Source of the DNA: a virus
IMG/VR virus record: IMGVR_UViG_3300045988_149625
DNA: 64,000 bases
Reading direction: 5' to 3' (one strand)
Within the stretch, counting starts at the first letter, position 1, and every line of letters starts with the position of its first letter. Of this stretch, positions 15,052 through 31,401 are shown piece by piece. The notes beneath the pieces were generated by a model. The model was not told the origin of the DNA and ran no database searches. It saw only the letters and a list, made by a program, of their open reading frames with translations. Made by a program: the position numbers and the translations under genes.

Positions 15052-15123
15052 GCCTCGGTAGTTTAATTGGTAGAACGGTGGACTCCAAATCCATTGGTCT
15101 GGGTTCAAGTCCTAGCCGAGTGT
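15052..15123 (+). tRNA. tRNA-Trp (anticodon CCA)
   Basis: cloverleaf folded by hand; anticodon loop cuCCAaa; top two acceptor pairs mismatched. Confidence 0.55.
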
Positions 15124-15164
15124 GCCAATTTTAAATAATTTTTGTTTTAAAAGGAGAAATAATT

Positions 15165-15551
15165 ATGAGATTACGTTACATTGTAGACAAAGAACATGGC
15201 GTAGTAGTTTGTATTGGTGAGTGCGGTGAATTTGACCTTATGAAAGACCTCGGTATTCTTGATAAAGATTGTTCTAATATTGACGATATTCCTTTACAAG
15301 AACTGCTTGCATATTCTTTAAGCTCTTCATTTAAGGGCGTTGCAAAACTCGCAGATGGGGATGTTTGGGATGAGCAGCTTGGTAAAGATATTGCGCGTGA
15401 GAAATGCTTTGCAAAATATAATTCTGCAAAGAAACATAAAGTTGAGAAACTGATTGAGCAAGCTAAGTCAGTATTGGAAGTTTTAAATGCACATAAAGAA
15501 GCTTACGAAACTCTCGGTACTATCGAGAATTATTACAAAAGACTTAATTAA
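15165..15551 (+). CDS. hypothetical protein inside tRNA island
   Basis: 128 aa ORF with RBS-like aaaggagaaataatt. Confidence 0.5.
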   Translation: MRLRYIVDKEHGVVVCIGECGEFDLMKDLGILDKDCSNIDDIPLQELLAYSLSSSFKGVAKLADGDVWDEQLGKDIAREKCFAKYNSAKKHKVEKLIEQAKSVLEVLNAHKEAYETLGTIENYYKRLN

Positions 15552-15623
15552 TAGTGACTCCTAGATACTTACATTAATTACACATTGCTACAAAATATAC
15601 TCCTATAAGTATCTAGGGTATAT

Positions 15624-15701
15624 GCTCCCTTATCCCAATTCGGCAGAGGAAACTGTCTTAGAAACAGTTTAGTGTGGGTTCAAATCCCACAGGGAGTACC
15701 A
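15624..15701 (+). tRNA. tRNA with anticodon TAG (nominally Leu-CUA) but class I (short variable arm); identity uncertain
   Basis: acceptor gctccct/agggagt, perfect anticodon stem actgt/acagt with loop cuUAGaa, T-arm gtggg-ttcaaat-cccac, encoded CCA. Confidence 0.6.
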
Positions 15702-15708
15702 ATATTAT

Positions 15709-15798
15709 GGAGTGGTGGCAGAGTCTGGTTTATTGCACCTGTCTTGAAAACAGACGAACTGAGAAGTTCCGTGGGTTCAAATCCCACCCACTCCCCCA
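15709..15798 (+). tRNA. tRNA-Ser (anticodon TGA)
   Basis: acceptor ggagtgg/ccactcc, loop cuUGAaa, long variable arm, CCA encoded. Confidence 0.7.
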
Positions 15799-15946
15799 TG
15801 CTTACTAAGTTTATCAGCAGATGGTTACAGTTGGTTGTGTCTTAGTAAGCCTTGCCCAGCAAGAAGGGCATTGTAAAGAATATTTTTGCAGGGGTAGCAT
15901 CCTCTAATCAAAATGTAGAGGGACTGCCTAGGCTTTCCCTCAAAAT

Positions 15947-16033
15947 GGCTTACGTCGCCTAGAGGTCAATGGCAGGGGACTGTAAATCCCCCGCGTTTAC
16001 GCTGCGTGGGTTCAAATCCCACCTAAGCCACCA
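15947..16033 (+). tRNA. tRNA-Tyr (anticodon GTA)
   Basis: anticodon stem gggga/tcccc, loop cuGUAaa, long variable arm, T-arm gtggg-ttcaaat-cccac, CCA. Confidence 0.65.
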
Positions 16034-16169
16034 TAAGCTAAGTGCTCCCAAATCACATGGCTTAATATTCCTTAGTAGTGCGGGGAAAAGAACAGCATTA
16101 CAGTTTGACTTACTTACAAGTGTTTCTGTAAATAGGTAGTCTTTGCAGAGCACTACCTATTTTACACAT

Positions 16170-16263
16170 GGAAAGTTAAGCCTAATGGTAAGGCAGAAGT
16201 TTGCTAAACTTCCAGTAGTCACTTATTAGTGATGTATGGGTTCAAGTCCCATACTTTCCCCCA
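16170..16263 (+). tRNA. tRNA-Ser (anticodon GCT)
   Basis: acceptor ggaaagt/actttcc, loop uuGCUaa, long variable arm, CCA. Confidence 0.7.
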
Positions 16264-16281
16264 AAATTTTCAAATTTAGTA

Positions 16282-16310
16282 TTGACAAATTGGGAAATCC
16301 ATGATATACT
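16282..16310 (+). promoter_or_regulatory. sigma70-type promoter within tRNA island (TTGACA-17-TATACT)
   Basis: gtattgacaaattgggaaatccatgatatact. Confidence 0.55.
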
Positions 16311-16328
16311 AATTACAGTAAAGGAAAT

Positions 16329-16404
16329 GCTCTTTTCATCCAATAGGTAAGGATGCACGACTTATAATCGTGTCATAGAGGTTCAAGTCCCCTAGAGAGC
16401 ACCA
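16329..16404 (+). tRNA. tRNA-Ile (anticodon TAT, reads AUA)
   Basis: acceptor gctcttt/agagagc, D-stem atcc/ggat, anticodon stem cacga/tcgtg loop cuUAUaa, CCA. Confidence 0.7.
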
Positions 16405-16483
16405 TAAAAACTTTTGCTACGGAGTTTGAATAAGGTTTGTTTTTGTTAGCTCCTTTCTGTACCTTATTTTTCAAGTAGCCTAT

Positions 16484-16559
16484 GATGTGTTGGTCTAATG
16501 GTTAGGACAATAGCCTTTCAAGCTGTTAATGCAGAGTTCGATTCTCGCACATATCACCA
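16484..16559 (+). tRNA. tRNA-Glu (anticodon TTC)
   Basis: acceptor gatgtgt/acatatc, loop cuUUCaa, T-stem with one bulged A, CCA. Confidence 0.6.
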
Positions 16560-16614
16560 TGCTCAGTCGAGGGTTCGATTACCTCACTCCCTACTATTAA
16601 TCTTTAATTAAAGA

Positions 16615-16691
16615 GAGCTGTTAGCCAAGTTGGGGAAGGCATTGGTCTGCAAAACCAACATTCAAGGGTTCGATTCCCTTACAGCTCTCCA
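16615..16691 (+). tRNA. tRNA-Cys (anticodon GCA)
   Basis: acceptor gagctgt/acagctc, anticodon stem ttggt/accaa loop cuGCAaa, T-arm aaggg-ttcgatt-ccctt, CCA. Confidence 0.7.
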
Positions 16692-16775
16692 AATTGAGGT
16701 ATCTTCTAAAGGTAGGAAACAAGACTTTGACTCTTGGAATAGTGGTTCGAGTACATTTACCCCAGCCAGGTTTTA

Positions 16776-16852
16776 CGGCATATAGCGCAGTTTGGTAGCG
16801 CACCTGCCTTGGGAGCAGGGGGTCGCAGGTTAAAATCCTGCTATGCCGACCA
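16776..16852 (+). tRNA. tRNA-Pro (anticodon TGG)
   Basis: acceptor cggcata/tatgccg, D-stem gcgc/gcgc, anticodon stem cctgc/gcagg loop cuUGGga, CCA. Confidence 0.7.
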
Positions 16853-16989
16853 TAAGATGCTACAGCAAATTTGAACAAAAATGTTTATGGAAGAAAATAT
16901 TTTAATAGCATCTTGTTTTAAAGTGCCTCAGCAATCTTTTTAAGAACAACATTTCGGAAAACATGTAACTATTAAGGCACTTTGTAAAT

Positions 16990-17060
16990 GCGGGTGTAGT
17001 TTAGTGGTAAAATTACAGCCTTCCAAGCTGATGTTGTGAGTTCGATTCTCATCGCCCGCT
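16990..17060 (+). tRNA. tRNA-Gly (anticodon TCC), CCA not encoded
   Basis: close resemblance to Bacillus-type tRNA-Gly(TCC) (gcgggtgtagtttagtggtaaaa...ccttccaagctgatg...gagttcgattctcatcgcccgct). Confidence 0.75.
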
Positions 17061-17118
17061 CGCCTTGCTAAGTAAGCAACCTTCTCGTGGTGCAAGGTGT
17101 TTTAAACTAATAGCTTAC
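17059..17118 (+). repeat. 60 bp direct repeat copy 1 (ctcgccttgctaagtaagcaaccttctcgtggtgcaaggtgttttaaactaatagcttac)
   Basis: identical copy at 18480-18539; each starts at the 3' end of a tRNA (Gly, Thr). Confidence 0.9.
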
Positions 17119-17179
17119 GTAAACTAAGGAATTAGGGGATAACAACACCTCCCCTTAACAATAGTTAAGGAGGGATTTT

Positions 17180-17815
17180 ATGGCATTTATTTATAAAATT
17201 ACTAATGATATAAATGCTAAGGTGTATATTGGTAAAACTTTAGGTAGTATCAAGAAAAGGTGGAAAGAGCATTTAAAAGACTGTAAGAAGAGGAAAAATG
17301 AAAAACGACCTCTCTACGCTGCTATGAGAAAATATGGCACAGAGCATTTTAAGATTGCCTTAATAGAAGAGTGTCCTGAAGATATTGTTTCTGATAGGGA
17401 AATTTATTGGATTGAATACTTTGGTTCTTTCAAAAGTGGTTATAATGCTACAACAGGTGGGGATGGGAAGTCTTACTTAGACCGCAACATTGTAGGCGTA
17501 TTTTGGATATTTAATAAAAACATACATGAGATACAACAGCTTACAGGTTACTCCTCCTCTACAATTAGAAATGCACTACACCAATTTGGTATAGACCCCT
17601 TTTATATTAAAAAGAGGGGTAGCGAGGGTACTTATAAATCTGTTAGTATGCTCACAAAAGATGGTAAGTTTATTAGGAGCTTCCATTCTATTACCGAAGC
17701 TAATGCTTATATTGAATCTATTTATCATTGTAAAATTAATGGTGGAGGGCATATACCTTGCGTTTGCTCTGGAAAAAGAGTAACAGCTTATGGTTATAAA
17801 TGGGTATATAATTAA
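17180..17815 (+). CDS. GIY-YIG homing endonuclease (SegB/I-TevI-like) with C-terminal HTH
   Basis: 211 aa; FIYKITN...KVYIGKT (GIY...YIG), R/E/N catalytic block KKRWKEH...EIYWIEYF...YNATTGGDG; embedded in tRNA cluster. Confidence 0.85.
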   Translation: MAFIYKITNDINAKVYIGKTLGSIKKRWKEHLKDCKKRKNEKRPLYAAMRKYGTEHFKIALIEECPEDIVSDREIYWIEYFGSFKSGYNATTGGDGKSYLDRNIVGVFWIFNKNIHEIQQLTGYSSSTIRNALHQFGIDPFYIKKRGSEGTYKSVSMLTKDGKFIRSFHSITEANAYIESIYHCKINGGGHIPCVCSGKRVTAYGYKWVYN

Positions 17816-17832
17816 TTCTCATCGCCCGCTCC
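17815..17832 (+). repeat. duplicated 3' fragment of tRNA-Gly (ttctcatcgcccgct + CCA) abutting HEG stop codon
   Basis: 16 nt identical to 17045-17060. Confidence 0.7.
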
Positions 17833-17934
17833 ATATGTTGAGGGTAGAAAGGCGGCTACCGTCTAATAAGAATAGCTTAGATTGAAAATTTCTTATTGGA
17901 AGATGTGGAAAATGTCGTTCCACCAACATTAAAC

Positions 17935-18008
17935 TTCCCCATAGGTTATGGATAAACTAAGGGACTTCTAATCCTTTGCTCTGTGTTCGACTCACAGTGG
18001 GGAAGCCA
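17935..18008 (+). tRNA. tRNA-Arg (anticodon TCT)
   Basis: acceptor ttcccca/tggggaa, loop cuUCUaa, T-arm ctgtg-ttcgact-cacag, CCA. Confidence 0.65.
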
Positions 18009-18012
18009 AAAT

Positions 18013-18088
18013 GCGCACATAACTCAGTTGGTAGAGTAACCGACTTTTAATCGGTATGTCCTAGGTTCAATTCCTAGTGTGCGCACCA
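18013..18088 (+). tRNA. tRNA-Lys (anticodon TTT)
   Basis: acceptor gcgcaca/tgtgcgc, D-arm actc-agttggtag-agta, loop cuUUUaa, CCA. Confidence 0.75.
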
Positions 18089-18094
18089 TTTTAT

Positions 18095-18179
18095 GTGCCT
18101 GTGGCGTAATTGGCAGCCGCAAGGGACTTAAAATCCCTCGGATTTATCCGTACCAGTTCGAGTCTGGTCAGGCACACCA
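18095..18179 (+). tRNA. tRNA-Leu (anticodon TAA)
   Basis: acceptor gtgcctg/caggcac, anticodon stem aggga/tccct loop cuUAAaa, long variable arm, CCA. Confidence 0.75.
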
Positions 18180-18331
18180 AATGCGGCAAAGCACAAGTGT
18201 GTAGTTGAGGAAGCAAGGACTCAAAAGGGTGTGTGCAACTCCTACTTGCCGCGCCATATGGGTTGATAATGTAACAGTTAATACTTTGAACTATAACAAG
18301 GAATTATATTCAAGTATTTCAGCCCAATCTT

Positions 18332-18407
18332 GCTTCTCTAGCTCAGTTGGTAGAGCAAAGGATTGAAAATCATTGTGTGAGTGGTTCGATTCCATTGGGA
18401 AGCACCA
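18332..18407 (+). tRNA. tRNA-Phe (anticodon GAA)
   Basis: D-arm gctc-agttggta-gagc, loop uuGAAaa, T-arm agtgg-ttcgatt-ccatt, CCA. Confidence 0.65.
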
Positions 18408-18410
18408 AAT

Positions 18411-18481
18411 GCTGGCATAGTTTAATGGTAAAACGCTAGTTTTGTAAACTAGCTTTGCGGGTTCGATTCCTGCTGCCAGCT
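18411..18481 (+). tRNA. tRNA-Thr (anticodon TGT), CCA not encoded
   Basis: acceptor gctggca/tgccagc, anticodon stem ctagt/actag loop uuUGUaa. Confidence 0.7.
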
Positions 18482-18539
18482 CGCCTTGCTAAGTAAGCAA
18501 CCTTCTCGTGGTGCAAGGTGTTTTAAACTAATAGCTTAC
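18480..18539 (+). repeat. 60 bp direct repeat copy 2
   Basis: identical to 17059-17118. Confidence 0.9.
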
Positions 18540-18569
18540 AAGAGATTAATTGAGGAAGCCCCCAAAAAT

Positions 18570-18644
18570 TGGCATATAGCTCAATGGTAGAGTAGATGAC
18601 CGTTAATCATTTGGCTGTAGGTTCGAGTCCTACTATGCCAGCCA
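18570..18644 (+). tRNA. tRNA-Asn (anticodon GTT)
   Basis: acceptor tggcata/tatgcca, D-arm gctc-aatggta-gagt, loop ccGUUaa (C33 unusual), CCA. Confidence 0.6.
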
Positions 18645-18670
18645 TTTATTTTAAGAAAGGACTAATTATT

Positions 18671-20206
18671 ATGAGTGTTACTTTTATGACAGCACTACAA
18701 AACGAAGCAAATAAGAGTGTTACAGAAAACGGCGCAGTAGGGTACAACACCACCTACAATGAGCTGTTGGATTTTAATTATAAAGTACCTTCATTGCGTA
18801 AGGCAGATGATGCAAACTTGCAAAAAGAGGTAGCACTACTTGTTAGTAGCATTGTTGACCCCGAACTTTTGCTACGTTACATGTTCTTTTTGCGGGACGC
18901 GCGTGGAGGAATGGGTGAAAGACGTATCTTTCGTGCTATTTTAAAGGAACTTGCAAACAGGAACTTTGAATATGTTCCTAGGATGCTGCCTTTAATAGTT
19001 GAGTATGGAAGATATGACGACCTATTTGTTTTAAAGGATACACCATTTCAAGAGGAAATGGAAGGCTATATTATAGGAACTTTATTGTCAGATGAATATT
19101 CAATGGCTAATAATGAACCTTGTTCCTTACTTGCAAAATGGATGCCATCGGTTAATGCAAGTAGTAAAGAAACCATCAAACTTGCAAATTACTTTGCTAG
19201 AGATGTTTTTAATACTACACCTGCAAAATACCGCAAGCGTCTTTCTGCATTACGCAAGCACTTAAAGGTTGTTGAAGCACAGATTAGTCGCGGAGAGTTT
19301 TCTGAGATTAATTATGAAGGAGTACCTTCAAGAGCAAATCTGCGTTACTCTAATCTTTTCCTAGATAGAGATAATGAACGCAGAAGGCAGTATTTGAAGA
19401 GCTTAGCAAGTGGGAAAGTAAAGATTAATGCAGGAGTTCTTTACCCACAAGATATTGTGGCGAAGCTAAGAGGATTATCCGATTCTGTTTATAGCTTTAG
19501 ATTCTCCAAGCAGATTCCGCAGCTTTATAAGAACCAATATAATGCAATGTGGAAAGGACTCAAAGACTTTGGTGAGCTTAAAAATACTATTGTTGTAGTT
19601 GATACTAGCGGTTCAATGTTTGAACCTGTTAGTTCTTCTATTGCGGCAATAGATGCTTCTGTTGGTTTAGGTCTTTATTTTGCCGAAAGAAATGCGGGTG
19701 TCTTTAAAGATAAAATTATTACGTTTAGTGATAATCCTACATTTGTTGATGTATCTAAATATAACAATATTTTAGATAAATTAATAGCAGTTTCAAAAGC
19801 AGAGTGGGGATTTTCTACAAATGTTGAAGCAGTATTTGATTTAGTTCTAAGAACTGCGGTAGCAAATCACTGTGAACAGTCTGAGATTCCTAGAATCTTA
19901 ATCATTAGTGATATGGAATTTAATTACTGTGTTTCAGATTCAGAGCACTTTTTGATGAAGGATATAGAATCTGACTTTAAGGCAGCAGGTTATGAGCTTC
20001 CAAAGCTTTCATTCTGGAATGTAAATTCAAGAACGAATACTCTGCCTATCACACAGAATAAACAAGGGGTTGCACTTGTTAGTGGCTATTCCACTGCTTC
20101 AATAAAAGCTGTAATGAGCAATGAGGTAGACCCATATAAAGCTTTCCTAGAGTGTTTTTACACTCCTAGGTATGACTTTATAAAAGAAGTGTTGGACATT
20201 AAATGA
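18671..20206 (+). CDS. von Willebrand factor A domain protein (MIDAS DxSxS), possibly DUF2828-like
   Basis: track ORF begins inside tRNA-Asn; likelier start ATG 18671 (MSVTFMTALQ); vWA core IVVVDTSGSMF...ILIISDMEF. Confidence 0.55.
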   Translation: MSVTFMTALQNEANKSVTENGAVGYNTTYNELLDFNYKVPSLRKADDANLQKEVALLVSSIVDPELLLRYMFFLRDARGGMGERRIFRAILKELANRNFEYVPRMLPLIVEYGRYDDLFVLKDTPFQEEMEGYIIGTLLSDEYSMANNEPCSLLAKWMPSVNASSKETIKLANYFARDVFNTTPAKYRKRLSALRKHLKVVEAQISRGEFSEINYEGVPSRANLRYSNLFLDRDNERRRQYLKSLASGKVKINAGVLYPQDIVAKLRGLSDSVYSFRFSKQIPQLYKNQYNAMWKGLKDFGELKNTIVVVDTSGSMFEPVSSSIAAIDASVGLGLYFAERNAGVFKDKIITFSDNPTFVDVSKYNNILDKLIAVSKAEWGFSTNVEAVFDLVLRTAVANHCEQSEIPRILIISDMEFNYCVSDSEHFLMKDIESDFKAAGYELPKLSFWNVNSRTNTLPITQNKQGVALVSGYSTASIKAVMSNEVDPYKAFLECFYTPRYDFIKEVLDIK

Positions 20207-21496
20207 ATAAAAGACTACTCAAATGGGTAGTCTTTTTCCATAAGGAGGTAACAATGGTAAAATTTGTTAAAAAGCGGGATGGAAGTATAGTACCTTTTGA
20301 GAAGCAAAAGATTATAAATGCTATTGGTAAAGCGGGTTTTGTAAAAGAAGATATTAAAGAAAAAATTGCAGATGAAATTCTGCATCAAAAACAAGAAGAA
20401 CTTTCGGTAGAGGCTATACAAGATTTAGTGGAAAATAAGTTAATGGCTTCTTCTTGTAAAGAAACCGCTAAGGAATATATACGTTATCGTTATAAGAGAA
20501 AATTGATTAGAGAAACAAAAGATTCTTTAAGTGAAGTCTTAGATATTGTTAATCTCAGTAATCAAGAAGTGAATGAGGAAAATAGTAATAAAAACCCTGT
20601 TATTAACTCTACGCAGCGTGATTATATGGCTGGTATGGTGTCAAAAGAATTATCTGAGAAATTGTTATTCCCACCAGATGTAATGGAGGCACACAAAGCA
20701 GGTATTATTCATGTACATGACATGGATTATGCTATTCAAAAAATGTATAATTGTGCACTATTAGATATGGAAGATATGCTACAAAATGGTACAGTTATTA
20801 ACGGAACACTGATTGAGAAACCACATAGTTTTGCTACTGCTTGTAATATTGCCACACAGATTATGGCACAAGTTGCTTCTAATCAGTATGGTGGGCAGAG
20901 TGTTTCTATAACACATTTAGCACCATTTGTCAATACTTCAAGACAGAGATTGAGAAAAAAAGTTAGAGAAGAACTTGCTCCTTATTATGAAATCTGTGAG
21001 AGTGTGGTCTTTGATATTGCTGAAAAGCGATTGAAAGAGGAAATCACTAGAGGGGTTCAAACCATGCAGTATCAAATTAACACCCTTATGACTTCCAATG
21101 GTCAGACACCTTTTGTTACCTTATTCCTATATCTCAATGAAGCTAAGAATGAGCAGGAAAAGAAAGACCTTGCTATGGTAATTGAGGAAATCATTCGTCA
21201 GCGTTATCAAGGAGTCAAGAATGAAAAGGGTGCATGGATAACCCCTGCTTTTCCTAAGCTGATATATGTCTTAGAGGAAGATAATGTTAAGGAAGGAACT
21301 CCCTATTTTTACTTAACAAAGATGGCTGCAAAATGTACGGCTAAGAGGATGGTTCCAGATTATGTTTCTGAAAAGATTATGTTAGAGAATAAGAAAACGT
21401 CCGATGGTGTTGGACATTGTTATCCTCCTATGGGATGCAGAAGCTTCTTAACACCATATCTTGATGAAAATGGAAAAGCTAAATTCTATGGACGGT
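20203..21496 (+). CDS. nrdD: anaerobic ribonucleoside-triphosphate reductase NrdD, exon 1 (ATP-cone + catalytic core N-part)
   Basis: ATP-cone VKFVKKRDGSIVPFEKQKIINAI; core GIIHVHDMDY...; ORF ends abruptly without glycyl-radical motif; splices to 22316. Confidence 0.8.
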
Positions 21497-22315
21497 TGAC
21501 CATCTGTTGAGCCGTCCTTAAACTGTGTGAACGCATGATAAAGCGGTGTGGGGAATGAACCCTGCTAACGGTGAAACTCCTAATGGACAATACCGTGCCA
21601 ACTTATATTAATAATTATTCTATAATTGGAGGAAATTATTATGACATCAATATATTTAGAGAATAAAGAATTTAAAGAACTTGATATTAACCCTAACTAT
21701 TTTATCAGTGCCGATGGTGCTGTATTTTCACAATTTGCTAAAAAGTTATTGAAGCCTCTTTATAGAGGTGTACAAGGTAAGCTATATCCTTATGTATGTA
21801 TTTACTATCAAGGCAAGCAAAGAAAATTTGCTGTCCACCGCCTTGTATATCATACATGGGTACATCCTTTAAGTAAAGGGCAGCAAGTAAATCATAAGGA
21901 TGATAATGTGAATAATTGCCACTATACGAATCTTTATGTAGGCACTAAAAAAGATAATATTGGTGATTGTGTTGCTAATGAGCATAGAGTAGGTAACGTA
22001 TTTTATTTAACCTTATTTGATAAGCTCCTTAATAAAGTAATTTCTTTTTGTCCTGCTAGAAACTTCATTGCATATAGTGGGCATATAAATAAGAGTGGTT
22101 CTTTAAATAAATTCTTTTCTAAGCACTGGTTTAAAAAACGTTATGAAATTCTTGAATTTAAACGTATTAAAAATCTTGATGAATTAAAAGGTGTAACGAC
22201 TAATGGTGATGAGTGTAACCATGTAGGATAGAGTTTATCACTATCCGAAGCGCACAGCACTTACTTAGTAAGTGAAGATATAGTCTAATCTTTATAGTAA
22301 TATAAAGTATTTATG
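21497..22315 (+). mobile_element. group I intron in nrdD carrying an HNH homing endonuclease ORF
   Basis: 5' exon ends in U of gacggU; internal guide gccgtc (21513-21518) pairs with it via G.U; intron ends in G (22315); joining gives in-frame cgg-ttc-aac-caa-ggg (GRFNQGVVTINL). Confidence 0.75.
21626..22231 (+). CDS. HNH homing endonuclease (intron-encoded)
   Basis: 201 aa; FAVHRLVYHTWVHPLSKGQQVNHKDDNVNNCHYTNL (H-N-H-like). Confidence 0.8.
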   Translation: MEEIIMTSIYLENKEFKELDINPNYFISADGAVFSQFAKKLLKPLYRGVQGKLYPYVCIYYQGKQRKFAVHRLVYHTWVHPLSKGQQVNHKDDNVNNCHYTNLYVGTKKDNIGDCVANEHRVGNVFYLTLFDKLLNKVISFCPARNFIAYSGHINKSGSLNKFFSKHWFKKRYEILEFKRIKNLDELKGVTTNGDECNHVG

Positions 22316-23241
22316 TCAACCAAGGGGTTGTCACAATAAATCTTGTTGATGTAGGATTATCTGCAAATGGCGATAAAGAAAAATTCTGGAAGATTTTAGA
22401 TGAGCGGTTAGAATTATGCCATAAAGCATTAAGGGTAAGACACCAAAATCTTAAAGGTACAATTTCTAATGTTTCACCTATTCACTGGCAGTATGGGGCT
22501 ATTGCAAGACTTCAAAAGGGAGAGAAGATTGATAAGTTATTGGAGAATGGTTACTCCACAATTTCTTTAGGGTATGCAGGTTTATATGAATGTGTTTTGG
22601 CTATGACAGGTAAATCGCATACTGACCCAGAGGCAAAGCCTTTTGCTTTAGCTATTATGCAGAGATTAAATGATAAATGTGCAGAGTGGAAAGAATTAGA
22701 GGGGTTAGGATATTCTGTATATGGTACTCCTATTGAATCAACAACTTATAAATTTGCAAAATGTTTAAAGAGCCGTTTTGGTGAGATTAAAGGCATTACA
22801 GACCACGATTATATTACTAATAGTTATCATGTTCATGTGAGAGAGCCAATAGATGCTTTTACAAAATTGAAATTTGAATCTGAATTTCAATTACTTAGTC
22901 CAGGTGGGGCTATTAGCTATATTGAATGTGCTGATATGACTAAGAATTTAGATGCTGTTATCACAGTTATTCAGTTTATTTATGATAATATTATGTATGC
23001 TGAATTAAATACTAAGAGTGATTATTGTCAAGTCTGTGGATATGATGGTGAGATTAAGATTGTTACTGACCACGGCAGACTAGAGTGGGAGTGTCCGAAT
23101 TGTGGAAATAAAGACAAGACAAAAATGAATGTCGCGCGTAGGACGTGCGGCTACATTGGAAGTCAGTTTTGGAATCAAGGACGTACCGAAGAAATTCGTG
23201 ACAGATTCGTACATTTAGGTGGGGATTTTAGCGTATTATGA
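22316..23241 (+). CDS. nrdD: NrdD exon 2 (C-terminal Zn-ribbon and glycyl-radical motif)
   Basis: open frame from 22316 reads ...NQGVVTINLVDVGLSANGDKEKFWKILDERLELCHKAL...; CQVCGYDGE...CPNCG; radical motif RRTCGYIGS. Confidence 0.8.
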
Positions 23242-23654
23242 AACTTTTAAATGATTCAATGGTAATAAGTCCTAAACGTGGTGATATGTTACTTACAAAA
23301 CCTGTGGGACGTTTTTATAGTGACGAAACAACTTTAATAGTGAAATGCCCTTTTAAAGAAGTTAATGATTCGCTAGATTATATTCGTATTAACGGTGACT
23401 TAAATATCCCTCTAGGAGTATTAGTTATGACTTCTAGGGGGTTTAAGCCTAGTGCAGATTTAGATGTTGGGGATGTATTAATAAGGTATTTCCTAGATGA
23501 TTTACCCTATGATGCACCACAGAAGCCTTTAAGAATGTCAGAGGAATCAGTCAAGACTATTAAGCAGCTAAAGGCTACAAATTCAATAGAAGTACCCTTC
23601 AAGACATGTATCATAAATGGGCTTTTTCTTAAAGGGGTATTGACAAATACTTAA
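23238..23654 (+). CDS. hypothetical protein
   Basis: 138 aa ORF overlapping nrdD stop (ATGA). Confidence 0.45.
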   Translation: MKLLNDSMVISPKRGDMLLTKPVGRFYSDETTLIVKCPFKEVNDSLDYIRINGDLNIPLGVLVMTSRGFKPSADLDVGDVLIRYFLDDLPYDAPQKPLRMSEESVKTIKQLKATNSIEVPFKTCIINGLFLKGVLTNT

Positions 23655-30384: not shown

Positions 30385-31401
30385 ATGGCAACAAGATGGC
30401 CGCTAGGAAATGAAATTAATACTATCATTAAAACTACTGAAACTGAATTAGATAGTGGTACTGCTGTTCAACTGGTTAATTCTTTAATCCCAGTATTAAG
30501 CAAAGAAATTCTGTTTATGGCAGAACCTGTATATACCTTCTATGAGTTTGCAGCACGTAAAACCGAGCTGACTACAAACCCAGGTAACGAAATTAAGATG
30601 TTGACCTACAACAACTTAAAACTTTCTGAACCATTGGAAGAGGGTAAACACATTAAGACACAAACTTTAAGCTCTAGCACAAAGAGTATTAAAGTTGTTG
30701 AACATGGTACTGCTGTAATGATTACCGAAGCAGCAATTCGTTTCTCTTTTGTAGACGAATTAGAAGTAGCTATGCGCCAACTGTCACGTAACTATGTGCA
30801 GACCATTGAAAAAGAACTGTGCAGTGCTGCTGTAAAAGGTGGTACTGGAACATCTAAAATTTTCGGTAGAGCAAAAGGTGCTGCTAAAATTAGTGCTATT
30901 GGCGAAATTGAAGCAGGTAAGAATGATTTTTCAGTAACAACTGTTAAAGATGCAGTAGAAATACTGACTACTAACAATGTTCCGAAAATCAACGGATACT
31001 ATATAGCAATAATCCATCCGCACCAGGCACGTGCTCTAAGAGAAGACCCAGCATGGATTAATGCTAGTAATTATGGTGCACCAGAACAACTGTTCAATGG
31101 TGAATGTGGACGTATTGATGATGTACGTTTTATCACAACAACCATGATGCCTAATGGTGCAGCAGCAGAGAGTGAATTAGGATATGATGCTAACTTAAAA
31201 GCAAAAGGTAAGAATCGAGAAAATGTATATGATGCAATTATTTTCGGTGAAGATTACTACTGCATTGCAGAAAACTTAGCACCAGAAATCAGAACAGATG
31301 CTACCGCAGATTTCGGACGTGAAATGAAAATTGCATGGTATGGAATTTGGGGTACAGATGTACTGAATCCGACTCACGGAGTAGTTATTCAAACTGCTTA
31401 A
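30385..31401 (+). CDS. major capsid protein (putative, HK97-fold)
   Basis: 338 aa directly after scaffold gene. Confidence 0.6.
   Translation: MATRWPLGNEINTIIKTTETELDSGTAVQLVNSLIPVLSKEILFMAEPVYTFYEFAARKTELTTNPGNEIKMLTYNNLKLSEPLEEGKHIKTQTLSSSTKSIKVVEHGTAVMITEAAIRFSFVDELEVAMRQLSRNYVQTIEKELCSAAVKGGTGTSKIFGRAKGAAKISAIGEIEAGKNDFSVTTVKDAVEILTTNNVPKINGYYIAIIHPHQARALREDPAWINASNYGAPEQLFNGECGRIDDVRFITTTMMPNGAAAESELGYDANLKAKGKNRENVYDAIIFGEDYYCIAENLAPEIRTDATADFGREMKIAWYGIWGTDVLNPTHGVVIQTA

What the first reader, a model, noticed from the sequence alone, without database searches (positions are those of the whole stretch)
20203..23241. nrdD split by a group I intron carrying an HNH homing endonuclease (T4 sunY/nrdD-like arrangement)
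The first NrdD ORF has an ATP-cone and catalytic core but stops at 21510 without the glycyl-radical motif. The C-terminal part (Zn ribbon CxxC...CxxC and RRTCGYIGS) lies 800 nt downstream in an open frame with no proper ATG. Exon 1 ends in U (gacggU, 21496), which can pair with an internal guide gccgtc at 21513-21518 through a G.U wobble. The intervening sequence ends in G (22315). Joining gives in-frame ...FYGR-F-NQGVVTINL..., the conserved NrdD core. The 819-nt intervening sequence encodes an HNH endonuclease (21626-22231).
Basis: partly seen in the sequence, partly recalled or inferred. Interest (0 to 1): 0.65.

Follow-up and report, generated by a model that had tools for sequence, protein, structure and literature searches.

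The report
Group I intron splitting phage nrdD

Summary
nrdD is split into exon 1 (20254-21496) and exon 2 (22316-23241) by an 819-nt intron (21497-22315). Pfam NRDD positions 1-276 fall in exon 1 and 278-562 in exon 2. The spliced 722-aa protein aligns without a gap to solved NrdD structures. The intron has every group I (IA2) core element, and covariation supports the helices: 94.5% of cells pair against 33-43% for slid controls. At least nine other viral contigs carry the same intron at the same YGR|F codon. Two of them lack the ORF, and close relatives have an uninterrupted site. The 196-aa ORF (21641-22231) resembles the HNH endonuclease I-HmuI, sits in the P6 loop, and its last 14 codons are core RNA.

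The arrangement is not T4's. T4's intron is at codon 180 (residue 273 here, against 415), and its GIY-YIG ORF lies after P9. The two cores are nevertheless about 70% identical.

Split phage nrdD genes are already well documented, so this is a new member of a known kind. One extra is a conserved two-hairpin cassette between P3 and P4, and its carriers miss Rfam's threshold.

The parts
20254..21496 (+). nrdD exon 1 (ATP-cone plus N-terminal half of the NrdD core). It ends in the first base of codon F415.
   Evidence: Pfam ATP-cone 1.2e-19 and NRDD 1e-81, profile positions 1-276. RBS AGGAGG lies upstream of ATG 20254.
21497..22315 (+). Group I (IA2-type) intron, 819 nt.
   Evidence: Core elements listed below. 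Family covariation. Homologous introns at the same codon in L022, L070, L114, L156, L157, L160, L165, L167 and L168.
21490..21496 (+). P1 5' strand (last 7 nt of exon 1, GGACGGU). U21496 is the splice-site U of the U.G wobble.
   Evidence: Pairs with 21511-21517. Compensatory changes in L070 (GUCGGU/GCCGAC) and L114 (GGUCGCU/GGUGACC).
21506..21510 (+). P10 guide (GUUGA), pairing with the first 5 nt of exon 2 (UCAAC, 22316-22320). It overlaps the in-frame stop UGA at 21508-21510.
   Evidence: L070 has GGUUGA/UCAAUC and L114 has UUAA/UUAA, co-varying with their exons.
21511..21517 (+). Internal guide sequence, the P1 3' strand (GCCGUCC).
   Evidence: Recovered by the MFE fold.
21523..21529 (+). 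P3 5' strand (CUGUGUG).
   Evidence: Pairs with 22251-22257. Five of 7 pairs show double-sided changes in 24 sequences. L114 and L157 have CGAUGUG/UGCAUCG and L165 has CGAAGUG/CGCUUCG.
21532..21565 (+). Lineage-specific two-hairpin cassette inserted in J3/4. hp1 is CGC-AUGAUAAA-GCG (21532-21545) and hp2 is GUGGGG-AAUGAA-CCCUGC (21548-21565).
   Evidence: Present in 17 distinct viral introns. The hp1 stem is complementary in 17 of 17 with 6 stem variants, and hp2 always folds as a hairpin. Recovered by the MFE fold. Absent from T4 sunY and from the other IA2 relatives.
21568..21596 (+). P4-J4/5-P5-J5/4-P4' (ACGGUG-AAA-C-UCC-UAAU-GGA-CAA-UACCGU).
   Evidence: The same string occurs in more than 120 viral loci. 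The first P4 pair co-varies U-A/A-U, 18 to 6.
21597..21599 (+). P6 5' strand (GCC). The P6 loop that follows holds the ORF.
   Evidence: Pairs with GGU at 22190-22192. The third pair co-varies C-G/G-C/U-A.
21641..22231 (+). HNH homing-endonuclease ORF, 196 aa, with RBS GGAGG at 21628-21632. Its last 14 codons (KGVTTNGDECNHVG*) are encoded by P6'-J6/7-P7-P7.1-P7.2.
   Evidence: PHROG 59 and 959 'HNH endonuclease', E 2e-24 and 3.5e-23. PDB 1U3E I-HmuI, E 3e-5. Pfam HNH_3 scores 23.6 bits, below the 24.8 cut-off. Catalytic H85, D87-D88-N89 and N97 are invariant in three orthologs.
22190..22202 (+). P6 3' strand (GGU), J6/7 (GUAAC) and P7 5' strand (GACUA, 22198-22202).
   Evidence: Invariant in 24 family members. 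P7 pairs with UAGUC at 22281-22285 in 100% of cells.
22203..22250 (+). The IA2 hallmark region: P7.1 (AUGGU-GAUGAGUGUA-ACCAU), GUAG, P7.2 (GGAUAG-AGUUUAUCA-CUAUCC) and GAAG.
   Evidence: Both stems are compensated in L070 and L114. The P7.1 loop GAUGARUGUA and GUAG are shared with the T4 sunY intron.
22251..22257 (+). P3 3' strand (CGCACAG).
22258..22274 (+). P8 hairpin (CACUUAC-UUA-GUAAGUG).
   Evidence: L022 has C22264U, turning C-G into U.G. L070 and L114 have different stems that still pair.
22275..22285 (+). J8/7 (AAGAUA) and P7 3' strand (UAGUC), the catalytic-core consensus.
   Evidence: Rfam RF00028 alignment. Invariant in the family.
22290..22307 (+). P9 hairpin (CUUUAUA-GUAA-UAUAAAG) with a GNRA loop.
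   Evidence: Six of 7 pairs show double-sided changes. L070 lacks P9.
22315..22315 (+). Terminal G of the intron (omega-G).
   Evidence: Conserved in L070, L114, L157 and L165.
22316..23241 (+). nrdD exon 2 (C-terminal half: Zn ribbon and glycyl-radical motif RRTCGYIGS).
   Evidence: Pfam NRDD 1.2e-103, profile positions 278-562, and Gly_radical 2.4e-17.

Best explanation
[quoted passage not shown] It lies within codon F415 of the phage's class III ribonucleotide reductase gene nrdD.

Proposed mechanism, inferred from the anatomy:

1. The ribosome translating exon 1 stops at UGA 21508-21510, four codons into the intron.
2. The RNA folds. The guide sequence at 21511-21517 pairs with the exon 1 end to form P1, with U21496.G21511 marking the 5' splice site.
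3. An exogenous guanosine bound at the P7 G-C pair (G22198-C22285) attacks the 5' splice site.
4. P10 (21506-21510 with 22316-22320) aligns exon 2.
5. The terminal G22315 is exchanged into the site and the exons are ligated. The resulting mRNA encodes a 722-aa NrdD.

The P6 loop carries a gene for an I-HmuI-like HNH endonuclease. That enzyme presumably nicks or cuts intron-less nrdD alleles of co-infecting phages near GGNCGNTT|YAAYCARGG. Repair from the intron-bearing copy then spreads the intron (homing).

Shown here: the split, the exact junctions, the conserved and co-varying RNA structure, empty sites in relatives, ORF-less siblings, and intact HNH catalytic residues. Inferred only: actual splicing, endonuclease activity and target.
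For: **Gene split and junction.**
- Pfam NRDD profile positions 1-276 and 278-562 fall on either side of the insert.
- The spliced protein aligns without a gap across the junction to PDB 9d3x (E 5.6e-126) and to T4 NrdD 1h78 (E 9.9e-112).

**RNA structure.**
- After the ORF is removed, the core aligns column for column with ORF-less phage introns that score 54-90 bits on RF00028.
- On 24 sequences, 94.5% of cells pair against 33-43% for slid controls.
- There are 106 compensatory cells against 11-35 for slid controls.
- No shuffle out of 500 reaches the observed covariation score.
- P1, P10, P3, P7.1, P7.2, P8 and P9 are compensated among nrdD introns that share only about 77% core identity.
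- The MFE fold independently recovers P1, P3, P4, P5, P6, P8 and P9, with z = -2.9.
- Rfam matches the 3' core at E 3.7e-8.

**Mobility.**
- The same intron sits at the same codon in at least nine other contigs.
- L157 and L165 lack the ORF.
- L002-L005 have uninterrupted target sites.

**ORF.**
- PHROG HNH families, E 2e-24.
- I-HmuI, E 3e-5.
- The catalytic residues H, D-D-N and N are invariant at 47-59% overall identity.
- Six of the 8 nucleotide differences from strain L022 are synonymous.

**Precedent.** Split phage nrdD genes, with splicing confirmed by metatranscriptomes, are reported in PMC3653736 and PMC12880540.
Against: - No RNA data for this phage, so splicing is inferred.
- RF00028 scores 39 bits on the window and 45 bits on an ORF-less sibling. 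Both are below the gathering score of 50.
- Pfam HNH_3 is just below its cut-off, 23.6 against 24.8 bits.
- A 34-nt cassette interrupts J3/4, a joining segment that normally makes tertiary contacts. Its compatibility with catalysis is assumed from conservation, not shown.
- tblastn with a relative's NrdG found no nrdG activase gene in the 64-kb window, so the functional context of NrdD is incomplete.
Confidence: 0.93

Rival explanations
1. The intron is a decayed relic that no longer splices, and nrdD in this phage is a pseudogene.
For: The Rfam score is below the gathering threshold. There is an unusual insert in J3/4. No nrdG was found in the window.
Against: - Every catalytic-core element is intact and identical to the family consensus.
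- Both exons keep open frames with all NrdD motifs.
- The same arrangement persists in lineages whose NrdD has diverged to 63-75% identity, with compensatory changes maintaining the helices. That requires ongoing selection on the RNA.
- The J3/4 insert is itself conserved and co-varying in 17 introns.
Confidence: 0.04
2. nrdD is a true split gene. A free-standing HNH endonuclease gene inserted into it, and the two halves are made as separate polypeptides that assemble, as in Aeromonas phage Aeh1 nrdA split by mobE. No RNA splicing is involved.
For: Such cases exist in phage RNR genes (PMC3653736). Gene callers annotate the 435-aa stub and the HNH gene as separate genes.
Against: - Exon 2 has no start codon or RBS. 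The first in-frame start is at 22540, 75 codons in.
- The split falls inside a codon.
- The flanks of the ORF form a complete, co-varying group I core, with P1 and P10 pairing to both exon ends.
- ORF-less versions of the same insert exist. A free-standing endonuclease model cannot explain those.
Confidence: 0.02
3. The interruption is an intein or another protein-level element.
For: Close relatives L002 and L003 do carry an intein in nrdD.
Against: The reading frame closes at 21510 and is not continuous through the insert. There are no intein splicing motifs. The intein in the relatives is at a different site (HNC|F...N|C).
Confidence: 0.005

Closest known systems
Phage T4 nrdD (sunY) group I intron encoding I-TevII
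   Same: - Same host gene.
- Same intron class, with P7.1/P7.2 between P7 and P3'.
- The core is about 70% identical from P4 to J8/7, with the same P7.1 loop GAUGARUGUA and GUAG motif.
- There is an in-frame stop just inside the intron.
   Different: - T4's insertion site is codon 180, equivalent to Y273 here. This intron is at F415, equivalent to T4 N310.
- T4's ORF is GIY-YIG and lies downstream of P9. This ORF is HNH and lies in P6.
- T4 lacks the J3/4 cassette.
Bacillus phage SPO1 DNA-polymerase intron encoding I-HmuI (PDB 1U3E)
   Same: The endonuclease here is an I-HmuI-type HNH enzyme. I-HmuI is its only PDB match, E 3e-5 over residues 17-110, covering the N-terminal DNA-binding sheet and the HNH motif. 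Both enzymes are encoded in phage group I introns.
   Different: The host gene differs (DNA polymerase against nrdD). Protein similarity is low. The C-terminal half of this ORF has no match. Nicking as opposed to double-strand cutting was not tested.
Staphylococcus phage Twort nrdE introns (one with the HNH enzyme I-TwoI) and other split phage RNR genes
   Same: These are group I introns, some carrying HNH ORFs, inserted at highly conserved codons of a ribonucleotide reductase catalytic subunit in Firmicutes phages (PMC3653736).
   Different: The host is the class Ib gene nrdE, not the class III gene nrdD. No sequence comparison was made here.
Group I introns fragmenting nrdD in human-gut 'Jug' jumbo phages (PMC12880540)
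   Same: Human-gut phages with nrdD interrupted by group I introns, HNH genes and inteins. Splicing was verified by metatranscriptome reads.
   Different: Those are 360-402 kb Bacteroides phages with short introns of about 206 nt. This is a phage of about 100 kb whose NrdD is closest to Enterocloster and Clostridioides phages. Whether the insertion site is shared was not checked.

Membership tests
Group I intron (Rfam RF00028) | P1 formed by the exon 1 end and an internal guide, with U.G at the 5' splice site | tested here: met
   GGACGGU (21490-21496) pairs with GCCGUCC (21511-21517). Compensatory changes occur in L070 and L114.
Group I intron (Rfam RF00028) | P10 between the guide and the start of exon 2, and a terminal G | tested here: met
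   GUUGA (21506-21510) pairs with UCAAC (22316-22320), and G22315 is the last intron base. The pairing co-varies in L070 and L114.
Group I intron (Rfam RF00028) | Conserved core helices P3-P8 and P4-P6 in the canonical order, with the P3/P7 pseudoknot | tested here: met
   94.5% of cells pair on 24 sequences against 33-43% for slid controls. There are 106 compensatory cells. See also the alignment.
Group I intron (Rfam RF00028) | P7 guanosine-binding G-C pair and the J8/7 consensus | tested here: met
   GACUA (22198-22202) pairs with UAGUC (22281-22285), and J8/7 is AAGAUA. All are invariant in the family. Being invariant, these positions give no covariation evidence.
Group I intron (Rfam RF00028) | Score at or above Rfam's gathering threshold of 50 bits | tested here: not met
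   39.0 bits (E 3.7e-8) on the window, covering the 3' core only. The ORF-less sibling L165 scores 45.0 bits. ORF-less relatives without the J3/4 cassette score 54-90 bits. The shortfall is explained by the ORF and the cassette, which the model mis-threads.
Group I intron (Rfam RF00028) | GTP-dependent self-splicing | not testable with these tools
   Needs in-vitro transcription and GTP labelling, or RT-PCR.
Subgroup IA2 | Extra helices P7.1 and P7.2 between P7 and the 3' strand of P3 | tested here: met
   P7.1 is at 22203-22222 and P7.2 at 22226-22246. Both are compensated in L070 and L114 and are homologous to those of T4 sunY. Subgroup-specific covariance models were not available.
Intron-encoded HNH homing endonuclease (I-HmuI type) | HNH (beta-beta-alpha metal) catalytic motif | tested here: met
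   VNHKDDNVNNCHYTNL. H85, D87-D88-N89 and N97 are invariant in three orthologs. PHROG 59, E 2e-24. 1U3E, E 3e-5. Pfam HNH_3 scores 23.6 bits, just below the 24.8 cut-off.
Intron-encoded HNH homing endonuclease (I-HmuI type) | ORF is an optional passenger in a peripheral loop, and empty target sites exist | tested here: met
   The ORF is in the P6 loop. ORF-less introns occur at the same site in L157 and L165. Intron-less sites occur in L002-L005.
Intron-encoded HNH homing endonuclease (I-HmuI type) | Site-specific cleavage of the intron-less allele | not testable with these tools
   Needs expressed protein and a target DNA substrate.
T4 sunY/nrdD intron (orthologous insertion) | Same insertion site in nrdD | tested here: not met
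   T4 is at codon 180 (AFQAYE|YEVNTL), equivalent to Y273 here. This intron is at F415.
T4 sunY/nrdD intron (orthologous insertion) | GIY-YIG ORF (I-TevII) downstream of P9 | tested here: not met
   The ORF here is HNH and lies in P6.
Class III ribonucleotide reductase NrdD | ATP-cone, NrdD core, Zn ribbon and C-terminal glycyl-radical motif in one polypeptide | tested here: met
   Met after splicing. Pfam ATP-cone, NRDD positions 1-562 and Gly_radical. Full-length alignment to 9d3x and 1h78.

The most novel reading that the evidence does not exclude
The intron belongs to a structurally distinct sub-lineage of IA2-type phage introns. Its defining feature is a conserved two-hairpin cassette inserted into J3/4: GUGAA^C-stem-RUGAYRAA-stem-GU-GUG...UGC-U^AACGGUG. 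J3/4 is normally a 3-nt joint that makes core tertiary contacts. The sub-lineage has colonised nrdD at the YGR|F codon and several other phage genes. Even its ORF-less members tested here fall below Rfam's group I gathering threshold. If it is undescribed, it is a peripheral domain in a new position and a blind spot for intron annotation in phage metagenomes.
Probability: 0.35. Interest if true: 0.45.

Novelty: new member of a known kind. Interest (0 to 1): 0.3.

Why it matters
**Annotation.** Gene callers report a truncated 435-aa NrdD plus a stand-alone HNH gene on the source contig. The phage in fact encodes a complete 722-aa class III reductase.

**Biology.** This adds one more example to the established pattern that phage ribonucleotide reductase genes are hot spots for mobile introns and inteins. 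Within one group of gut phages, nrdD carries either this intron at F415 or an intein at another site.

**The one less routine point.** The intron's lineage has a conserved, co-varying cassette in J3/4, and carriers tested here score below Rfam's threshold (45 bits for L165). Surveys that rely on RF00028 at its gathering score may therefore miss introns of this lineage.

Tried and rejected
1. **First hand parses of the core were wrong.** I initially placed the P7 5' strand at ACUAU (22242-22246) and then at GGAC (21586-21589). I also tried P4 as GCAUG/CGUGC or GCGGU/ACCGU. All were rejected once alignment to ORF-less relatives showed three things. The canonical GUAACGACUA lies inside the ORF's 3' end. 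ACUAU belongs to P7.2. GGAC is the P5 3' strand (GGA) plus the first J5/4 base.
2. **Rfam's own threading is wrong in places.** In one search it used CACUAUCCG as the P3 5' strand. In one search it read the cassette as P2/P3. Both are contradicted by P3 covariation (CUGUGUG/CGCACAG, CGAUGUG/UGCAUCG, CGAAGUG/CGCUUCG).
3. **The cassette is not a substitute for the missing P2.** L159-type members have both P2 and the cassette.
4. **An alternative P3 using the second conserved GUGUG** gives only 5 bp and has no covariation, so I rejected it.
5. **H2 and H12, two-piece tblastn hits** that I expected to be introns, turned out to be inteins at another site.
6. **Megablast of the whole region** against deposited phages found only a 45-nt match to an intron in a different gene of Bajarodcaudo virus 1.
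7. **Literature search for a J3/4 or P3.1 insertion** failed. One query was malformed and the other returned only noise. The novelty of the cassette is therefore unresolved.
8. **Loci L002-L006 never reached the Python sandbox**, so I analysed them with the built-in tools instead.
9. **Two regex mis-hits** (L070 P1/P10 and L114 P3/P8) were corrected by hand from the sequences.

Full report
**What is in the sequence**

The region reads as the first-stage reader described.

- An ORF with an ATP-cone and the N-terminal half of NrdD runs to a UGA at 21508-21510.
- A 196-201-aa ORF follows at 21626/21641-22231.
- An open frame with no start codon before 22540 carries the Zn ribbon (CQVC...CPNC) and the glycyl-radical motif RRTCGYIGS, and runs to 23241.
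- Pfam places NRDD profile positions 1-276 in the first piece and 278-562 in the second.
- Joining 21496 to 22316 is in frame. It gives a 722-aa protein, counted from ATG 20254, with the split inside codon F415.
- That protein aligns end to end, with no gap at the junction, to solved NrdD structures: 9d3x at E 5.6e-126 and T4 1h78 at E 9.9e-112. FYGRFNQGVVTINL aligns with LDGRNNLGVVTLNL in T4.

Three coordinates need correction.

- The guide GCCGUCC is at 21511-21517.
- The endonuclease most likely starts at ATG 21641, behind GGAGG at 21628-21632.
- nrdD most likely starts at ATG 20254, behind AGGAGG, not at 20203.

**Is it a group I intron?**

Rfam's RF00028 does not reach its gathering score. 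It gives 39 bits (E 3.7e-8), and only for the 3' core at 22159-22307. I therefore worked out the structure by comparison with relatives.

- The 3' core string GAAGAUAUAGUCUAAUCUUUAUAG occurs in 29 viral contigs.
- The P4-P5 string CGGUGAAACUCC...GGACAAUACCG occurs in more than 120 viral contigs.
- ORF-less members of this set score 54-90 bits on RF00028.

Once the ORF is removed, the window's intron aligns column for column with these relatives from P4 onward. That alignment corrected my first hand parses. The canonical J6/7-P7 string GUAACGACUA lies at 22193-22202, inside the 3' end of the ORF.

The resulting anatomy is as follows.

| Element | Coordinates and sequence |
|---|---|
| P1 | 21490-21496 with 21511-21517, U.G at the splice site |
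| P10 | 21506-21510 with 22316-22320 |
| P3 | 21523-21529 with 22251-22257 |
| P4, J4/5 | ACGGUG/UACCGU, J4/5 AAA |
| P5 | UCC/GGA |
| P6 | GCC (21597-21599) with GGU (22190-22192); the ORF sits in its loop |
| P7 | GACUA (22198-22202) with UAGUC (22281-22285) |
| P7.1 | 22203-22222 |
| GUAG | 22223-22226 |
| P7.2 | 22226-22246 |
| GAAG | 22247-22250 |
| P8 | 22258-22274 |
| J8/7 | AAGAUA |
| P9 | 22290-22307, GUAA loop |
| Terminal G | 22315 |

P7.1 and P7.2 between P7 and P3' mark the IA2 type.

**Statistical support**

I counted pairs on an alignment of 24 sequences, made of 4 trimmed nrdD introns and 20 ORF-less relatives.

| Measure | Proposed P3, P4, P5, P6, P7, P9 | Controls |
|---|---|---|
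| Cells that pair | 94.5% | 33-43% when the 3' partners are slid by 1-3 columns |
| Cells changed on both sides | 106 | 11-35 when slid |
| Shuffles reaching the covariation score | 0 of 500 | n/a |

- P3 has 5 of 7 pairs with double-sided changes, and P9 has 6 of 7.
- The first pair of P4 and the third pair of P6 also co-vary.
- P5 and P7 never vary, so they are uninformative for covariation.
- The MFE fold of the ORF-deleted sequence knows nothing of my parse. It recovers P1, the long-range P3, P4, P5, P6, P8 and P9, with z = -2.9 and 1 of 200 shuffles folding as well.

**The same intron in other nrdD genes**

At least nine other viral contigs carry a homologous intron at exactly the same codon (...Y/W-G-R|F-N-Q-G...). 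They are L022, L070, L114, L156/L166, L157, L160, L165, L167 and L168.

- L022 is a 98.7%-identical strain.
- L070 and L114 are diverged. NrdD exon 2 is 63% and 75% identical, the intron core is 78% and 77% identical, and the ORF is 47% and 59% identical.

The exon ends differ among these lineages, and the guide sequences compensate.

| Helix | Window | L070 | L114 | Other |
|---|---|---|---|---|
| P1 | GGACGGU/GCCGUCC | GUCGGU/GCCGAC | GGUCGCU/GGUGACC | |
| P10 | GUUGA/UCAAC | GGUUGA/UCAAUC | UUAA/UUAA | |
| P3 | CUGUGUG/CGCACAG | CUGUGUG/CGCACAG | CGAUGUG/UGCAUCG | L157 CGAUGUG/UGCAUCG; L165 CGAAGUG/CGCUUCG |

P7.1, P7.2, P8 and P9 are compensated as well. This fixes both splice sites independently of the protein argument.

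**Mobility**

- L157 and L165 carry the intron without the ORF.
- The closest NrdD relatives in deposited phage records are 61-65% identical, come from human faecal scaffolds, and are mostly uninterrupted.
- Four of them have the contiguous target GGNCGNTTYAAYCARGGNGTNGT.
- Two of those four, L002 and L003, carry an intein elsewhere in nrdD.

**The ORF**

- PHROGs assigns it to HNH endonuclease families, E 2e-24 and 3.5e-23.
- Its only PDB match is I-HmuI, the intron-encoded HNH nicking enzyme of phage SPO1, at E 3e-5 over residues 17-110.
- Pfam HNH_3 scores just under its cut-off.
- The catalytic His, Asp-Asp-Asn and Asn are invariant in three orthologs.
- Six of the 8 nucleotide differences from strain L022 are synonymous.
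- The last 14 codons (KGVTTNGDECNHVG*) are encoded by P6', J6/7, P7, P7.1 and the start of P7.2. That stretch therefore serves both as protein-coding sequence and as ribozyme core.

**Comparison with T4**

The T4 record annotates nrdD as a two-piece join with I-TevII (GIY-YIG) inside it. T4's splice site is ...AFQAYE|YEVNTL... at codon 180, equivalent to Y273 here. That is 142 codons upstream of this intron's site.

T4's ORF lies after P9, and T4 goes directly from P3 to P4. The cores are nonetheless homologous.

- blastn finds about 70% identity over 145 nt, from P4 to J8/7, in 34 Escherichia-phage records and related Shigella and Salmonella phage records.
- In the one hit I inspected (H42, a Tequatrovirus), the match lies directly after nrdD exon 1.
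- The P7.1 loop GAUGARUGUA and the GUAG motif are shared.

So 'T4-like' is right for the gene and the intron class. It is wrong for the insertion site, the endonuclease family and the ORF position.

**An unexplained extra**

Between P3 and P4 the window has 34 nt that ordinary relatives lack (21532-21565). Removing it restores the canonical joint GUGAA-AACGGUG.

- It folds as two hairpins: CGC-AUGAUAAA-GCG, then GUGGGG-AAUGAA-CCCUGC.
- A pattern search found the cassette in 17 distinct introns, both in nrdD and in other genes.
- The first stem is complementary in 17 of 17, with six stem variants and a constant RUGAYRAA loop.
- The second element is always a hairpin of 15-50 nt closed by GUG/UGC.
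- None of the five cassette carriers tested at the gathering threshold gave a hit.
- The ORF-less carrier L165 scores 45 bits.
- I found no description of such an insert, but my literature search was ineffective.

**Context and novelty**

- The window matches a 100,623-bp contig from a human gut metagenome, ENA ERZ916599. Gene calling there splits nrdD into a 435-aa stub and a separate HNH gene.
- Split phage RNR genes are well documented. nrdD was the most often split RNR gene in a survey of 128 phage genomes (PMC3653736).
- In gut Jug phages, nrdD is fragmented by group I introns or inteins in 95 of 104 genomes, with splicing confirmed by RNA reads (PMC12880540).
- The finding is therefore correct but ordinary: a new member of a known kind. 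Interest is about 0.3, and the cassette lineage is the only part that might repay further work.

Noticed in passing
window 31059 (inside ORF 30385-31401); L022 10209-11047: The 98.7%-identical strain L022 has an insert of about 840 nt that the window lacks. It lies inside a 338-aa ORF that looks like the major capsid protein (...EDPAWI|NASNYG...; my reading, no family search run). The insert encodes an HNH-type ORF (VNHIDGNKLNNRVENLEW) and ends with a group I-like GUGAUAGUCUAAUC plus a hairpin. Rfam gave no hit at E<=0.01. It is probably a second mobile intron that is polymorphic between strains.
   Followed up: partly
window 21532-21565; L159, L162, L163, L172, L175-L177, L179 and the nrdD loci: A conserved, co-varying two-hairpin cassette is inserted in J3/4 of a sub-lineage of phage group I introns. 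None of the five carriers tested at Rfam's gathering threshold gave a hit. The ORF-less carrier L165 scores 45 bits against a threshold of 50.
   Followed up: partly
L002 about 1130-2030; L003 about 1130-2030: The closest deposited NrdD relatives (MT836495, MT835556) carry an intein of about 300 aa at ...HNC|FKGNT...VTGN|C.... This is a different site from the intron, so related gut phages have nrdD invaded by different mobile elements.
   Followed up: partly
window 15054-18641: An array of 17 tRNA genes, with a 'skipping-rope' RNA (RF02924, 44 bits) embedded at 17833-17931.
   Followed up: no
window 18596-20206: The 536-aa ORF directly upstream of nrdD has DUF2828, DUF7788 and a weak VWA_2 match. 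It starts inside the last tRNA.
   Followed up: no
window 23238-23654: The ORF immediately downstream of nrdD sits where relatives have the activase nrdG. It has no Pfam or PHROG match. tblastn with a relative's NrdG finds nothing in the window.
   Followed up: partly
L001 3148-4042 (Bajarodcaudo virus 1, PQ006092): A group I intron in a large unannotated gene shares a 45-nt 3' core that is 95.6% identical with the window's intron. It carries an annotated 'endonuclease' ORF that lies between the P7 5' strand and P3' and reads through P3', P8 and J8/7 into P7'.
   Followed up: partly
L041, L109, L146, L163: Several viral contigs carry two or three RF00028-positive introns within 1-3 kb.
   Followed up: no
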